Shown here one piece after another: positions 3,165 through 24,882 of a DNA stretch of 64,000 bases; position 1 is the first letter of the stretch; each line of letters starts with the position of its first letter. The DNA is from a virus. The position numbers were made by a program, and so were the translations under genes. The notes under the pieces were generated by a model, which was not told the origin of the DNA, did not search any database, and worked only from the letters and a program-made list of their open reading frames with translations. The stretch lies in IMG/VR virus record IMGVR_UViG_3300003890_000014, positions 1 through 64,000 of that record. One strand, 5' to 3'.

Positions 3165-3669
3165 TAAAAGAGGACTTATATACAGCCTATTAGGACACTT
3201 CCTATTACTAGCTCTATTAGCTTTTAATGGATTTCATACTAGAGGGGGGTCTGGAGGAGAACAACTGGAAACTAAAAGTGGAGGTAAAAAAGAATTATAA
3301 AAAATTACCGACAAACCCTCTGATAAGTTAGAAGTTGAAGTTGTCGAAAGTCCTACCTCAGAAACTCCTAAAAGAGCAAAAACTGCTCATGAAGACCAAG
3401 AATGTGAAAAATCATTTGGTGGAATCGGAGTAACGGTTAATGTCACTCCTCAAGGTCAACTTGTGATGGAAGTGCATAAAGGTTGTCCAGCAGACCTCGC
3501 TGGGTTTAAACCTGGAGATTTGATCTTAAACCAAAACAACCAACTTAGAGGAGAAGTAGGAACAGAAGTTTCTATTGATTACATAACTAGAGAAGGTCAC
3601 TCAGGAACAATCAAAGTGATTAGGGATAAAATTTGCTATGAAGAGACAGCTAGACCGAAAGGCCCTTAG
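3154..3669 (+). pseudogene. Membrane-anchored PDZ-domain protein with in-frame TAA at 3298-3300
   Basis: Single frame: TM segment LIYSLLGHFLLLALL, then KKEL*KIT, then PDZ signature FGGIGV...VHKGCPADLAGFKPGDLIL. Confidence 0.75.
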
Positions 3670-3847
3670 ACGGTCACTTTGGGCTGCACTTGCGAGGCTT
3701 ATCGGAGTTGGTCTTGGAGCCGGAGCTGGTAGTTTAATACACCAATTAATTGGAGGAGGATTCAATGGTTGGGGTATTGCGATGGGAATGGCAGGTGTAA
3801 GTTTTGTTTTGATGGTATTTGCAGAATATGAGAGGGAAATAGGATGA
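3638..3847 (+). CDS. Small two-TM membrane protein
   Basis: Two Gly-rich hydrophobic segments. Confidence 0.65.
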   Translation: MKRQLDRKALRRSLWAALARLIGVGLGAGAGSLIHQLIGGGFNGWGIAMGMAGVSFVLMVFAEYEREIG

Positions 3848-22353: not shown

Positions 22354-22864
22354 TTAGAACCCCTTCAATAACTGAAATATGCTTTGCTAACAAGACGTTA
22401 TATTTTTCTCTATGAGATGGAATAAAGCTATGATATCGAGTATACCAAGTACGTCCTTGTTTCTTATCTATTTTATCATAGGTTTGGCGAAGTTGTGCCA
22501 ATATTTTAGCTGTTTCTTCAATAGCATATGCAGAATCAGTCAATAAACGGCCTAATTCAACATTTCTAGACTCAATAGTCGTGTAATGGAGCTGTCCTAA
22601 CCCAAAGTCCCTACTCTTATAATTAATAGCTCTTATGTTGAAGTTAGACTCTTGTTTAAAGATCGCTACAAAAATCTTCCAATCAATAGAGTATTTAGTA
22701 CTCATGTCTTGGATATTATTAGCAATTGTCGTCGCCATGTCATCGGAAATAGATGGAGTTAACTTCTTAATAACATTAGCTATTTTTTCATCGGCTAACG
22801 AGTTTTTTGGAATCAGAGTAATTGTTAAAAATACTCCAATAGCGGTTAATATTTTGACTTTCAT
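22157..22864 (-). CDS. SLT-family lytic transglycosylase with signal peptide
   Basis: AIFKQESNFN, DFGLGQL, RYHS; the 3' tail overlaps TerS. Confidence 0.8.
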   Translation of the reverse strand: MKVKILTAIGVFLTITLIPKNSLADEKIANVIKKLTPSISDDMATTIANNIQDMSTKYSIDWKIFVAIFKQESNFNIRAINYKSRDFGLGQLHYTTIESRNVELGRLLTDSAYAIEETAKILAQLRQTYDKIDKKQGRTWYTRYHSFIPSHREKYNVLLAKHISVIEGVLNERQQRNKYQGTGTAGKSKVSEWRSNLTNFRGSGNSNSHPIQLERLGAMGRREEEIGLREELPSQ

Positions 22865-23199
22865 TAATTCTCCCGAACTTGGTTCGTGTATCTTTTCAAT
22901 CTCACCGTTATGGTGTAATTGTATAGGTACTCTTTAAGCAGATTGATTGCATCTGAGATTAACCTATCTTTACGGGTAAATAAAAGTCTCCAAAATTTTA
23001 TATATAAAACGACTTCTACTTTTCTATTTTCAGTATCTAGAAAATACTCTAAATACTTTACTTGAGGAAAATTCATGTATAAATTTGTAACGATATTGTT
23101 ATGCGCAATAGGGGAAACGATACCATACTTCATAAGCCAAGCATCGCCAGCAATAAAAAGGCTTTCTAGTTCTGAAAGGGCTTTCTTTTTGCTATCCAT
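22864..23199 (-). CDS. Hypothetical protein
   Basis: Coupled ORF. Confidence 0.65.
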   Translation of the reverse strand: MDSKKKALSELESLFIAGDAWLMKYGIVSPIAHNNIVTNLYMNFPQVKYLEYFLDTENRKVEVVLYIKFWRLLFTRKDRLISDAINLLKEYLYNYTITVRLKRYTNQVREN

Positions 23200-23539
23200 T
23201 CTTTTTTAACTTCTTTCTCCATGTTGTCGCATCTTTTCGTACATCTTTATTCGAATTTTTATAGTTTCCAAGATGTCCAATCAACAAATGGCAACAAATC
23301 CCCTTCTCCCAATTCTCACAAAGGGTGATAAGGTTTTTTGGATCAAGTTCTTTTGATGGATCTTCGTGAAACGGTACAATATGATGTACCTCAGTTTTGT
23401 TCAATGATCCACAAACCTCGCAATTAGGTTTTGCTTTTAAATGTTCAGCTCTTACTTTTGGCCATTGAGAAGATCTTTTTGCGCCAGCGGGAGCTTTTCC
23501 TTCGATACGATCTTTAATTTGCTTTATTAGTTTAATCAT
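23192..23539 (-). CDS. HNH endonuclease (gp74-like, near the terminase)
   Basis: W..VR..HL...CEVC...EVHHIVP...NLITLC...CH...H. Confidence 0.85.
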   Translation of the reverse strand: MIKLIKQIKDRIEGKAPAGAKRSSQWPKVRAEHLKAKPNCEVCGSLNKTEVHHIVPFHEDPSKELDPKNLITLCENWEKGICCHLLIGHLGNYKNSNKDVRKDATTWRKKLKKNG

Positions 23540-23548
23540 TCTTTCTCC

Positions 23549-23577
23549 AGAATACCAAATAGTTAAAGTATTGTCAA
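23549..23577 (-). promoter_or_regulatory. Sigma70-like promoter
   Basis: TTGACA-17-TATTCT. Confidence 0.7.
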
Positions 23578-23579
23578 TG

Positions 23580-23617
23580 AAAAAAGGCTCTTAAAACCTT
23601 AACGATTTTAAAAGCCT
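23580..23617 (-). terminator. Intrinsic terminator
   Basis: AGGCTTTTAAAATC-loop-GGTTTTAAGAGCCT followed by a U-run. Confidence 0.7.
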
Positions 23618-23618
23618 A

Positions 23619-23722
23619 TGGTGTGGTCACGCTTAAAACTACCATTTGCTAGATGGACTTACCATTACCCGAACAGCTATTCGGCCCTCAGTCACCCGTT
23701 TTAAGCTTATGAGTTCGACCAC
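23619..23722 (-). ncRNA. Candidate ~104-nt CCA-ending tRNA-like / Y-RNA-like ncRNA
   Basis: TATAAT 7 nt upstream; GTGGTCG/TGACCAC stem plus ACCA; GCTTAAAAC/GTTTTAAGC stem; two inner hairpins; terminator directly after. Confidence 0.6.
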
Positions 23723-23792
23723 AGCTATATTATAGCTTATAAATTAACCTTTTTTGTAACCTCTAATTCACAACTAAACATGCATAAAACTT

Positions 23793-23909
23793 CTAAGTTG
23801 AACTTCTGCTCGATTTAGAATAACAACGGTCTTGAATATCATTTCCAATATAAAAAGGTAATTTAGTCTCTGGATTTATGTGTGCATACACATAGTATTT
23901 TTTTGTCAT
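23793..23909 (-). pseudogene. GIY-YIG homing endonuclease remnant
   Basis: MTKKYYVYAHINPETKLPFYIGNDIQDRCYSKSSRSST*; VY...YIG motif, TAG where a Trp would be expected, remainder missing. Confidence 0.7.
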
Positions 23910-23911
23910 AA

Positions 23912-24120
23912 AAATTTTACGTAGTTGAAAAGGTGGGGCAACCTCACTCCCACTCCAAACGTAACTCTTGCGAGATACGAGTCACCACCCTTTAGATGCA
24001 GCCTTTTTTACGATTACGGCCAAGGGCATTCCAACTACGGCAGGTAGGCGTTAGAACAAGTCTTGCGACTGTTCAGGGCGCTTCAGCACTTCAGCCCGTC
24101 ATTATCCACCTGCAAAATTT
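23912..24120 (-). ncRNA. Candidate ~209-nt multi-stem structured ncRNA
   Basis: About 53% GC by hand count; stems GCAGGTGG/CTACCTGC and CGTAGTTGGAA/TTTCAACTACG; two GCAA tetraloop hairpins. Confidence 0.65.
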
Positions 24121-24694
24121 ACTTACTCAAATAATAAGCTCCAAGTGCTATAGCATCTGCAATATCTGCGTCACCTGAATTTTCTTTTACATTAAGATTT
24201 AATTTATATTGTTTGTTAACAAAGCGTTGACTGAGAGTTTTCCAGTCTACTACAAGTCTTTTTTGACCAGATACTCTTGCTTCTTTATTGAAAAGTTTAT
24301 CTTCTTCTGACAATTTGAGACCTAATCCGCCTCTCCAGCCCTCTTTTCCGTTGGAGTCGATATAAATAACTTCTTTAAGCCATTTAGGATCAATCATATT
24401 TAAATAGTCTAACACAAAGAAATGCAAGGCGTCAAGAGATTTTTGAGCGATTCTATTAATTCCTCTATTTATTTCTTCGATAATTATAAGTTCAGGATTA
24501 GTTTCAGTGACAATATCTCGAACTTTTGATGACATATCCTTAATTTTAGCTAGTTGAGCTTCAGGATATTTCATCTTTGTAATAAGAGGAACCTTTGGCT
24601 TCAAAATACCGTATTTAGTAAGCTTACCCTTTTCGTCGAAAAAAGCATAACCTGTGCAACTAGTTGATAAGTCTAAAGCCAATAAGGTTTTCAT
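24119..24694 (-). CDS. ruvC: RuvC-like Holliday junction resolvase
   Basis: LLALDLSTSCTGYA, IIIEE, DIADAIALG. Confidence 0.85.
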   Translation of the reverse strand: MKTLLALDLSTSCTGYAFFDEKGKLTKYGILKPKVPLITKMKYPEAQLAKIKDMSSKVRDIVTETNPELIIIEEINRGINRIAQKSLDALHFFVLDYLNMIDPKWLKEVIYIDSNGKEGWRGGLGLKLSEEDKLFNKEARVSGQKRLVVDWKTLSQRFVNKQYKLNLNVKENSGDADIADAIALGAYYLSK

Positions 24695-24882
24695 ACCTGC
24701 CTACTTATAACCCGCTGATAATGATTAAATAGTTTTTTAGAGGACTCTTTGAGGTCCCAAACTTCATCTAGTAGTTTTTGTTTATCTTCTGTATTATATG
24801 GAGAGGAGTTAATGCGAAATTCAACTTTATTCAAGTCATCTTGGATCTCTAAAAGTACTTTAAGATTCAATTTTATATTCAT
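24691..24882 (-). CDS. Hypothetical protein
   Basis: AAGGA RBS. Confidence 0.55.
   Translation of the reverse strand: MNIKLNLKVLLEIQDDLNKVEFRINSSPYNTEDKQKLLDEVWDLKESSKKLFNHYQRVISRQV

What the first reader, a model, noticed from the sequence alone, without database searches (positions are those of the whole stretch)
23912..24120. GC-rich ~209-nt structured RNA with a near-perfect three-way junction and two GCAA tetraloops
Seen on the minus strand, starting at the ruvC stop: an outer A-U stem (24120-24114 with 23918-23912) encloses two abutting domains. Domain 1 is closed by 24113-24106 with 24047-24040 and holds GGGC/GCCC and GAACAGTC-GCAA-GACTTGTTC. Domain 2 is closed by 11 bp (24039-24029 with 23930-23920) and holds CCCTT/AAGGG and CGTATCTC-GCAA-GAGTTACG. 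G-U pairs and GNRA loops work on this strand. An alternative pairing AAAGGGTGG/CCACCTTTT suggests a switch. I recognise no tmRNA, RNase P, SRP, 6S, group I/II or hammerhead motif. Inference: a new phage ncRNA or ribozyme class; its position upstream of the packaging operon makes a packaging or regulatory role conceivable.
Basis: partly seen in the sequence, partly recalled or inferred. Interest (0 to 1): 0.8.

Follow-up and report, generated by a model that had tools for sequence, protein, structure and literature searches.

The report
Orphan four-armed phage RNA after ruvC
The GC-rich stretch after this uncultured phage's ruvC-like gene is probably a real folded non-coding RNA of no catalogued family, with one likely relative at the same spot in a related phage, but nothing shows it to be a ribozyme, a switch or a packaging RNA.

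Summary
The described helices are in the sequence at the stated coordinates. Most are strongly favoured in the folding ensemble. The fold is modestly better than shuffles (z about -2.3 to -2.7) and better on the minus strand. The block is the most GC-rich ORF-free stretch of the 112.8-kb genome.

No Rfam family matches, and no frame is open.

In 57 related loci, ruvC is usually followed directly by the first late gene. The RNA, a 38-aa GIY-YIG remnant, a second CCA-ending RNA-like block and an HNH gene are therefore extras in a variable slot.

A covariance model of domain 2 alone (23920-24039) gave its best outside hit in the same ruvC-to-late-gene spacer of one relative, L002:3644-3730 (19.7 bits, E about 4e-4). 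All 22 shared pairs are kept and 9 changed on both sides. The reverse model did not find domain 2, so this is probable, not proven. Domain 1 and the proposed switch pairing are not shared.

In other relatives the same slot holds a tRNA-Pro and an aberrant tRNA-like gene, like the T4 region with tRNAs, segB, rnaD and rnaC.

Best reading: an uncatalogued four-armed small RNA of unknown function.

This scan has noted four-armed RNAs in other phages. Kinship with them was not tested.

The parts
24119..24694 (-). ruvC-like Holliday-junction resolvase gene (191 aa), complete; its stop codon 24121-24119 overlaps the start of the RNA
   Evidence: phrog_159 E 5.5e-11. 100 homologues at 36-61% identity. 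The C-terminus aligns to the end of the homologues, so no intron interrupts it.
24101..24130 (-). Weak promoter-like site (TTGAGT, 18 nt, GATAAT) overlapping the ruvC stop. If used, transcripts would start inside domain 1 and the domain 1 closing stem could not form.
   Evidence: Consensus scan, 9 of 12 matches. Not evidence of function.
24040..24113 (-). Domain 1: three-way junction (8-bp closing stem, GGGC/GCCC arm with a GCUGAAG-U-GCUGAAG loop, GCAA-capped hairpin). Seen only in this phage.
   Evidence: z -2.52. Pair probabilities 0.98, 0.61 and 0.93. No counterpart in L002, which has a plain 11-bp hairpin there.
23920..24039 (-). Domain 2: four-way junction core. It has an 11-bp closing stem, an arm with an A-rich loop, a GNRA-capped arm, and a 5-bp GGG/CCC arm with a purine-rich loop that nearly abuts the 3' closing strand.
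   Evidence: z -2.74. The model built from it finds L002:3644-3730 in the syntenic spacer at 19.7 bits. Of 22 shared pairs, 9 changed on both sides and none is broken.
23912..23918 (-). 3' half of the outer 7-bp A-U stem (partner 24114-24120); weak
   Evidence: Pair probability 0.23. Not part of the conserved core.
23793..23909 (-). 38-aa N-terminal remnant of a GIY-YIG homing endonuclease; no Shine-Dalgarno sequence; the rest of the gene is missing
   Evidence: 74% identical to residues 1-38 of the 174-aa protein P0102, which shows the GIY-YIG-type N-terminal motif (by eye) and a Pfam HTH_3 domain; other hits carry LEM-3 GIY-YIG or NUMOD3. phrog_5356 E 1e-4.
23619..23722 (-). Block 2: second RNA-like stretch with a 7-bp acceptor-like stem plus ACCA and a 9-bp helix stacked on it. 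It is the subject of another first-reader note.
   Evidence: Sequence. Weak fold statistics, z -1.1. No tRNA call and no Rfam match.
23585..23617 (-). Intrinsic-terminator-like hairpin (14 pairs) followed by a U run. It is the first terminator after ruvC, so ruvC read-through transcripts would carry block 1.
23549..23577 (-). Promoter-like site TTGACA, 17 nt, TATTCT with TG, in front of the HNH gene
   Evidence: 10 of 12
23192..23539 (-). HNH endonuclease gene (115 aa), absent from this position in relatives
   Evidence: Pfam HNH E 4.7e-7. In relatives the gene after ruvC is the orf111 homologue.
22864..23199 (-). orf111, first conserved gene of the late/packaging block. In most relatives it follows ruvC after 12-60 nt.
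   Evidence: 49-55% identical to L002 and L047 homologues. Gene order.

Best explanation
Block 1 is a real structured non-coding RNA of a family that is not in Rfam.

Its conserved part is domain 2 (23920-24039), a four-armed fold: a long closing stem, an arm with an A-rich loop, a GNRA-capped arm, and a G/C arm with a purine-rich loop next to the 3' closing strand. Domain 1 (24040-24113) is a lineage-specific three-armed 5' addition.

The RNA lies on the ruvC strand. It is made either by read-through from the ruvC operon (no terminator lies between) or from a weak promoter over the ruvC stop.

It occupies a variable slot between the last early gene (ruvC) and the first late gene. In related phages this slot is empty or holds tRNA or tRNA-like genes, and here homing-endonuclease genes have also landed in it.

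Shown: the fold, its strand bias, the lack of coding capacity, the lack of a known family, the slot, and the probable relative.

Inferred: it acts as a stable, folded small RNA in the manner of the T4 tRNA-region RNAs rnaC and rnaD. That would mean a tRNA-shaped but non-decoding RNA working through its shape, for example by binding or decoying a host protein that handles tRNA, rather than through catalysis or ligand sensing.
For: - Fold statistics, ensemble probabilities and strand asymmetry.
- Highest G+C of all ORF-free gaps.
- No open frame and no protein family.
- No Rfam match.
- A single-sequence model of domain 2, searched with filters off over about 150 kb of related and unrelated loci, gave its best outside hit at L002:3644-3730. 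That is on the ruvC strand, inside the 197-nt ruvC-orf111 spacer: 19.7 bits, E 3e-4 to 4e-4. The next best scores were 14.9 and 12.3 bits.
- On that alignment all 22 shared pairs are standard pairs, 9 with both sides changed, none one-sided or broken.
- L002 folds by itself into the same four-way junction. Its z is -2.8 to -3.3 on the sense strand against -1.5 to -0.6 on the antisense strand.
- A sequence-only global alignment of the two is better than shuffles (z 2.9-3.4, p 0.001-0.011).
- The GNRA cap is kept: GCAA here, GUAA there.
- The same spacer holds tRNA-Pro in L048 and a tRNA-like gene with a 48-nt insert in the anticodon arm in L019 (Rfam tRNA 40.8 bits).
- T4 has tRNAs, segB (GIY-YIG), tRNA-Arg, rnaD and rnaC in one block.
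- SegB-type genes are enriched next to phage tRNA genes (PMC13096335, PMC2330249).
Against: - There is only one candidate relative. The pair counts come from an alignment fitted to the model.
- The reverse model, built from L002 alone with its own RNAfold structure, did not find domain 2 in the 64-kb window (best hit 9.3 bits, elsewhere).
- nhmmer and the default-filter model search see no similarity.
- Fold z-scores are only about -2 to -3.
- Domain 1, the second GCAA hairpin as drawn (probability 0.13) and the outer A-U stem lack support.
- L047 lacks the RNA although its orf111 homologue is about as close to this phage as L002's, so the RNA is dispensable.
- It has no T-loop, no D-loop and no 7-nt anticodon loop, and here no CCA, so 'tRNA-shaped' rests on arm order alone.
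- Expression could not be tested.
Confidence: 0.5

Rival explanations
1. Structured leader of the homing-endonuclease gene. Block 1 came in with the GIY-YIG gene as its 5' leader and throttled its translation. The A-rich loop (CGUAAAAA, 24014-24007) can pair with UUUUUAUG, the start codon and the five bases before it. The endonuclease gene has since decayed and the leader is a leftover.
For: - The remnant's ATG lies 10 nt after the closing stem of domain 2.
- The loop-to-start complementarity of 8 pairs, one of them G-U, is visible in the sequence.
That note is unchecked here.
Against: - The probable relative in L002 has no endonuclease gene after it, and its loop has no comparable partner.
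- No int-alpA or other Rfam match.
- An A-run pairing with a U-run is cheap in an AT-rich genome.
- No full-length relative of the endonuclease could be fetched with its upstream DNA.
Confidence: 0.15
2. No RNA function. The block is foreign, G+C-richer DNA dragged in by endonuclease-driven or illegitimate recombination, or a decayed tRNA-like gene. Its stems and the likeness to L002 are chance.
For: - The whole 580 nt plus HNH is an insertion relative to most relatives.
- Fold z-scores are modest.
- The reverse model search failed.
- No further homologue in IMG/VR, one genome per prokaryote species, GenBank phages or plasmids.
- Imperfect direct repeats beginning GTAAGT flank 464 nt.
Against: - At 57% RuvC identity, neutral spacer DNA should be unalignable. 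Yet the top model hit falls in the syntenic spacer on the right strand with every helix kept and nine two-sided changes.
- Both elements fold better on the sense strand.
- No frame or protein family explains the composition.
Confidence: 0.22
3. One reading: a new self-cleaving ribozyme or a riboswitch-like element that toggles between CCCTT/AAGGG and AAAGGGTGG/CCACCTTTT.
For: Both pairings exist in this sequence. There are two GNRA loops and multi-helix junctions.
Against: - The alternative pairing is not conserved in L002.
- No match to any ribozyme or riboswitch model.
- No regulated gene follows in L002.
Confidence: 0.05
4. Remnant of a group I intron carrying a GIY-YIG gene. Block 1 would be the 5' half, the ORF would sit in a loop, and block 2 would be the 3' half.
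For: - GIY-YIG genes often sit in phage group I introns (established knowledge).
- Two G+C-rich blocks flank the ORF remnant.
- A long-range MFE pairs domain 1 with block 2.
Against: - ruvC and HNH are both complete, so no gene is interrupted.
- No Intron_gpI match even at E 10.
- The complementarity between domain 1 and block 2 is not better than shuffles.
- Two stem-closed multi-branch domains do not fit the P1-P9 order.
- L002 has the core without any ORF.
Confidence: 0.03
5. Packaging RNA or packaging signal for the terminase genes downstream.
For: Position some 1.5 kb upstream of terS-like and terL genes.
Against: - Most relatives with the same packaging genes lack it.
- No Phage_pRNA match.
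- A terminator and promoter separate it from the late genes.
Confidence: 0.02

Closest known systems
Phage T4 small stable RNAs rnaC (species 1, 139 nt) and rnaD (species 2, 119 nt) of the tRNA gene region
   Same: - Small, folded, non-decoding RNAs of unknown function.
- They lie in a phage's tRNA or small-RNA slot next to a GIY-YIG homing endonuclease gene (segB). The T4 order is tRNAs, segB, tRNA-Arg, rnaD, rnaC.
- They are multi-armed, with tRNA-like pieces.
   Different: - No sequence or model similarity (best 8.8 bits, E 0.6).
- rnaC keeps a canonical T-arm, which this RNA lacks.
- This phage has no ordinary tRNA gene in the window.
tRNA (Rfam RF00005) and aberrant phage tRNA-like genes
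   Same: - A four-way junction with arms in the order closing stem, arm, arm, arm.
- The last arm has a 5-bp GGG/CCC stem abutting (L002) or 1-2 nt from (here) the 3' closing strand.
- The same spacer holds a true tRNA-Pro (L048) and a tRNA-like gene (L019) in relatives.
   Different: - Closing stem of 9-11 bp, not 7.
- No T-loop or D-loop consensus.
- The middle arm ends in a GNRA tetraloop instead of an anticodon loop.
- No ARAGORN or Rfam tRNA hit.
Lineage-specific orphan structured small RNAs found by comparative genomics (for example the raiA motif, or the phage-linked GOLLD and ROOL)
   Same: Complex fold, GNRA loops, phage context, no known function, patchy distribution.
   Different: Much smaller than GOLLD or ROOL. 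Only two members are known so far. No match to any of these models.
phi29 packaging RNA (Phage_pRNA, RF00044)
   Same: A phage RNA of similar size built around a multi-helix junction.
   Different: - No model match.
- Different phage type: terS/terL packaging and a 112-kb genome.
- Absent from most relatives that share the packaging genes.

Membership tests
tRNA (RF00005) | Detected by ARAGORN or the Rfam tRNA model | tested here: not met
   No tRNA in the window. No tRNA match at E up to 10 on 23905-24125.
tRNA (RF00005) | 7-bp acceptor stem, D-loop and T-loop consensus, 7-nt anticodon loop, 3' CCA or a discriminator site | tested here: not met
   The closing stem is 11 bp. The loops are GUAAUCGUAAAAAA, GCAA and AGUGAGGUUGC. 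The 3' tail is UAAAAUUU.
Group I intron (RF00028) | Interrupts a gene; P3-P7 pseudoknot core recognised by the model | tested here: not met
   ruvC is complete to its C-terminus. The HNH gene has its own start. No Intron_gpI hit at E 10 over 23100-24800.
Known self-cleaving ribozymes and riboswitches in Rfam 15 | Match to the family covariance model | tested here: not met
   No match at gathering. Only chance-level hits at E up to 10.
Archaeal C/D box sRNA (sR30, RF01134) | Score at or above the gathering threshold; C, D', C' and D boxes with guide regions | tested here: not met
   16.8 bits against a threshold of 38. The hit rests on AUAAUGA and three CUGA words in domain 1. The SLT transglycosylase gene suggests a bacterial host (inference).
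phi29 pRNA (RF00044) | Match to the model; phi29-type packaging motor | tested here: not met
   No hit. The phage has terS-like and terL genes.
T4 rnaC / rnaD | Sequence or structural homology to the T4 RNAs | tested here: not met
   Model R2 scores 8.8 and 8.3 bits on the T4 region.
T4 rnaC / rnaD | Likeness in kind: a non-decoding folded RNA in a tRNA and GIY-YIG endonuclease slot | tested here: met
   GIY-YIG remnant adjacent. tRNA or tRNA-like genes lie in the same slot of relatives. T4 layout.
Proposed new family (this RNA plus L002:3644-3730) | Same four-way junction at the same locus, with helices kept through compensatory change | tested here: inconclusive
   - Forward model hit of 19.7 bits in the syntenic spacer.
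- 9 two-sided changes and 0 broken pairs.
- Sequence alignment p 0.001-0.011.
- The reverse model found nothing.
- No third member is known.

The most novel reading that the evidence does not exclude
Domain 2 and its L002 counterpart found a new class of tRNA-shaped, non-decoding phage RNAs. On this reading, these RNAs travel with homing endonucleases through the early/late junction of a widespread family of roughly 115-kb uncultured phages. They would act as decoys or adaptors for host tRNA-handling or tRNA-cleaving defence proteins. Domain 1 would be an added module that docks through its GNRA loop.
Probability: 0.12. Interest if true: 0.7.

Novelty: new variant of a known kind. Interest (0 to 1): 0.42.

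Why it matters
Phage genomes carry small folded RNAs whose roles are still unknown fifty years after T4 rnaC and rnaD were found. Recent work ties tRNA regions and their SegB-type endonucleases to escape from tRNA-cleaving defences (PMC13096335). If this RNA is real, it is another uncatalogued example of that kind. It has a compact four-armed core that could be expressed and probed, and it marks the ruvC-to-late-gene junction of this phage family as a slot where RNA genes and selfish nucleases are exchanged. With only two members and no expression data, it remains a candidate, not a discovery.

Tried and rejected
**Searches that found nothing**
- Rfam at gathering and at E 10, on the window, on the blocks alone and on relatives: nothing relevant.
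- blastn against GenBank phages and plasmids: nothing.
- nhmmer of both blocks against 26 related loci: nothing.
- BLAST of the region against the 26 whole related virus records: only chance hits.

**DNA pattern scans**
- Two GCAA tips with a gap: 8 hits, all chance, most in one protein-coding gene.
- An exact 20-mer: none.
- A 19-base pattern shared with L002, in IMG/VR: only L002 itself scored with the model.
- The same pattern in one genome per prokaryote species: 84 hits at about the chance rate, none with the fold.

**Model searches**
- R2 through the genome search missed even L002, so that route is insensitive.
- Searches of orf111-anchored loci found no new member.

**Ideas tested and dropped**
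- Terminal inverted repeats between domain 1 and block 2: the alignment is no better than shuffles.
- An intron in ruvC: rejected because the C-terminus is complete.
- 'Twin-box' RNA (earlier notes of this scan). The 8-mer UCGCAAGA occurs at both GCAA tips here, and CGCGUAA occurs twice in L002. Repeated 7-mers are expected by chance in this length and the positions differ, so no claim is made.

**GIY-YIG relatives**
- The word-based search found none.
- The exhaustive search found 12.
- Their DNA context could not be fetched.

Neither expression nor the closest RuvC relatives, which are held only in Logan or ENA, could be examined.

Full report
**What is there**

The window is the first 64 kb of a 112,813-bp IMG/VR virus record with 36.6% G+C. 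On the minus strand the order is as follows:
- a complete ruvC-like resolvase gene (24694-24119);
- the flagged G+C-rich block (24113-23920, with a weak A-U stem outside it);
- a 38-aa ORF (23909-23793);
- a second, smaller G+C-rich block ending in ACCA (23722-23619);
- a terminator-like hairpin (23617-23585);
- a promoter-like site (23577-23549);
- an HNH gene (23539-23192);
- orf111, an SLT transglycosylase, a terS-like gene and terL.

**Check of the observation**

In the RNAfold ensemble the helices are favoured as follows:
- closing stems of both domains: 0.98 and 0.96;
- first GCAA hairpin: 0.93;
- CCCTT/AAGGG stem: 0.90;
- an unlisted GUGGG/CCCAC hairpin: 0.99;
- GGGC/GCCC and the inner GGCC/GGCT stem: intermediate;
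- second GCAA hairpin: 0.13;
- outer A-U stem: 0.23.

Domain 1 is a three-way junction and domain 2 a four-way junction.

Against dinucleotide shuffles the minus strand gives z -2.3 for the block, -2.5 for domain 1 and -2.7 for domain 2. The plus strand gives -1.4 to -2.0.

The block has the highest local G+C of all 29 ORF-free gaps of the genome.

No frame is open and no open piece matches Pfam. The 60-aa plus-strand ORF has no Pfam match and is antisense to the end of ruvC. The statistical support from this one sequence is real but modest.

**Known families**

Rfam 15 gives nothing at gathering thresholds. At E up to 10 it gives only chance-level hits. The best is an archaeal C/D box model at 16.8 bits against a threshold of 38. 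ARAGORN finds no tRNA or tmRNA.

A group I intron was my first guess, because of the neighbouring GIY-YIG remnant. It fails for these reasons:
- ruvC aligns to the very end of 18 homologues;
- HNH has its own start;
- no intron model matches;
- the long-range pairing of domain 1 with block 2 seen in an MFE fold is no better than shuffles at the sequence level.

**Context in relatives**

RuvC has about 100 homologues at 36-61% identity, many on contigs of 110-120 kb. I fetched 26 loci from IMG/VR and 31 from metagenomes.

In most of them ruvC is followed after 12-60 nt, usually with a TTGAC-type promoter, by a homologue of orf111. So in this phage block 1, the 38-aa ORF, block 2, the terminator and promoter, and the HNH gene are all extra. 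The junction is a variable slot.

The 38-aa ORF is the N-terminus of a GIY-YIG endonuclease. It is 74% identical to residues 1-38 of a 174-aa protein that shows the GIY-YIG-type N-terminal motif and a Pfam HTH_3 domain. Other hits carry LEM-3 GIY-YIG or NUMOD3 domains.

**A probable relative**

One relative, L002 (IMGVR_UViG_3300037311_000024), has a 197-nt spacer. Its RuvC is 57% identical and its orf111 homologue 49% identical. By RNAfold alone, the spacer forms an 11-bp hairpin followed at once by a four-way junction.

A covariance model built only from domain 2 of this window was searched with filters off. Its best outside hit over about 150 kb was exactly this spacer, on the ruvC strand: 3644-3730, 19.7 bits, E 3e-4 to 4e-4 with rough calibration. 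The next best hits scored 14.9, 12.3 and 11.2 bits.

On the model-made alignment, all 22 pairs with letters in both sequences are standard pairs. Nine have changed on both sides: three in the closing stem, three in the first arm, one in the GNRA arm and two in the last arm. None is one-sided or broken.

Shared single-stranded words include GUUGG and UCAAC in the closing stem, GUAA opening the first loop, GGUG in the junction, a GNRA cap (GCAA here, GUAA there), and GGA..GGG...GAGG...CCCC in the last arm.

The L002 element is itself more stable than shuffles on the sense strand (z -2.8 to -3.3) and not on the antisense strand. A plain global sequence alignment of the two is better than shuffles (p 0.001-0.011).

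There are four caveats:
- The alignment is fitted to the model.
- A model built from L002 alone did not find domain 2 in the window. This may be because domain 2 carries about 33 extra bases inside two arms.
- nhmmer and the filtered searches see nothing.
- No third member was found by any route.

I put the homology at about three in four.

**The slot holds RNA genes**

- L048 has a tRNA-Pro in the same spacer, on the opposite strand.
- L019 has a gene on the ruvC strand that scores 40.8 bits on the Rfam tRNA model, with canonical D and T arms but 48 nt where 15 belong in the anticodon arm. ARAGORN rejects it.
- This window has the CCA-ending block 2.

The layout is the one known from T4, where the order is tRNAs, segB (GIY-YIG), tRNA-Arg, rnaD and rnaC. 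SegB is a homing endonuclease that promotes inheritance of the tRNA region (PMC2330249), and SegB-type genes are strongly enriched next to phage tRNA genes (PMC13096335). Model R2 does not match rnaC or rnaD, and the remnant shows no BLAST similarity to SegB. The likeness is therefore one of kind, not of descent.

**Reading**

The best-supported account is an uncatalogued small structured RNA. Its conserved four-armed core is domain 2, with a private three-armed 5' extension. It lies in a small-RNA and endonuclease slot at the early/late junction.

How it works is inference. I favour a stable RNA that acts through its tRNA-like shape. Less likely readings are a translation-braking leader of the now-dead endonuclease gene, whose A-rich loop can pair with the remnant's start codon region, and functionless imported DNA. 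Nothing supports a ribozyme, a ligand switch or a packaging RNA.

**Relation to earlier notes of this scan**

Other first-reader notes on this window cover block 2 and the GIY-YIG remnant, and I agree with both.

Notes on other genomes describe four-armed small RNA genes in the tRNA clusters of uncultured phages. They also describe leader RNAs of phage endonuclease genes. These are unchecked AI notes, and I could not compare sequences with them. They agree in kind with my reading but are not evidence for it.

**Limits**

The closest RuvC relatives, held only in Logan or ENA, and any expression data were therefore out of reach.

Noticed in passing
window 23619-23722 (-): A second RNA-like block. 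It has a 7-bp acceptor-like stem plus ACCA, stacked on a 9-bp helix, preceded by TATAAT and followed by a terminator. Fold statistics are weak (z -1.1). There is no tRNA or Rfam match, and models R1 and R2 do not hit it.
   Followed up: partly
window 23793-23909 (-): A 38-aa remnant of a GIY-YIG homing endonuclease, 74% identical to the N-terminus of a 174-aa protein (P0102) with a GIY-YIG-type N-terminal motif and a Pfam HTH_3 domain. It is cut off by a stop, and the rest of the gene is gone.
   Followed up: yes
window 23192-23539 (-): The HNH gene in front of orf111 is absent from this position in the relatives examined. It looks like a second free-standing endonuclease insertion rather than a fixed part of the packaging module.
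   Followed up: partly
window 24007-24014 and 23907-23914 (-): The loop word CGUAAAAA of domain 2 can pair (8 pairs, one G-U) with UUUUUAUG, the start codon region of the GIY-YIG remnant.
   Followed up: no
window 24061-24068 and 23966-23973 (-); L002 3659 and 3682: The 8-mer UCGCAAGA forms the tip of both GCAA hairpins here. In L002 the 7-mer CGCGUAA occurs twice, in the first loop and in the GNRA arm. This may be chance.
   Followed up: partly
window 24106-24126 and 23642-23662: Imperfect 21-nt direct repeats (15 of 21 identical, both beginning GTAAGT on the minus strand) lie 464 nt apart and bracket block 1, the remnant and most of block 2. They could be an insertion scar or chance.
   Followed up: no
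L019 3658-3763 (+): A tRNA-like gene in the ruvC-orf111 spacer of a relative. It scores 40.8 bits on the Rfam tRNA model with normal D and T arms, but has 48 nt in place of the 15-nt core of the anticodon arm. ARAGORN does not call it, and the gathering-mode scan missed it.
   Followed up: partly
L048 2637-2712 (-): A normal tRNA-Pro (anticodon TGG) lies in the same spacer of another relative, on the strand opposite to ruvC.
   Followed up: yes
L002 3604-3612 and 3730-3735: In L002 an extended -10-like word (TGATATACT) overlaps the ruvC stop just before the RNA. The closing stem is followed by GACCA, which would read as a 3' ACCA if the last position is an A-G mismatch.
   Followed up: no
L047 2606-2677: A relative close to L002 lacks the RNA. 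Its 70-nt spacer contains UCAACUAC, the same word as the 3' closing strand of domain 2. This could be a deletion scar or chance.
   Followed up: no
L046 1209-1492: After ruvC and a TTGACA-type promoter, this short contig has about 280 nt without a convincing ORF. The stretch contains a T-arm-like CCAGTTCGATTCTGG. The overall fold is not better than shuffles (z -0.9), and no tRNA is called.
   Followed up: partly
window 24071-24109 (-): Domain 1 carries AUAAUGA and three CUGA words. This gives a sub-threshold match to an archaeal C/D box sRNA model (16.8 bits against 38). It could hint at a kink-turn but is most likely chance.
   Followed up: no
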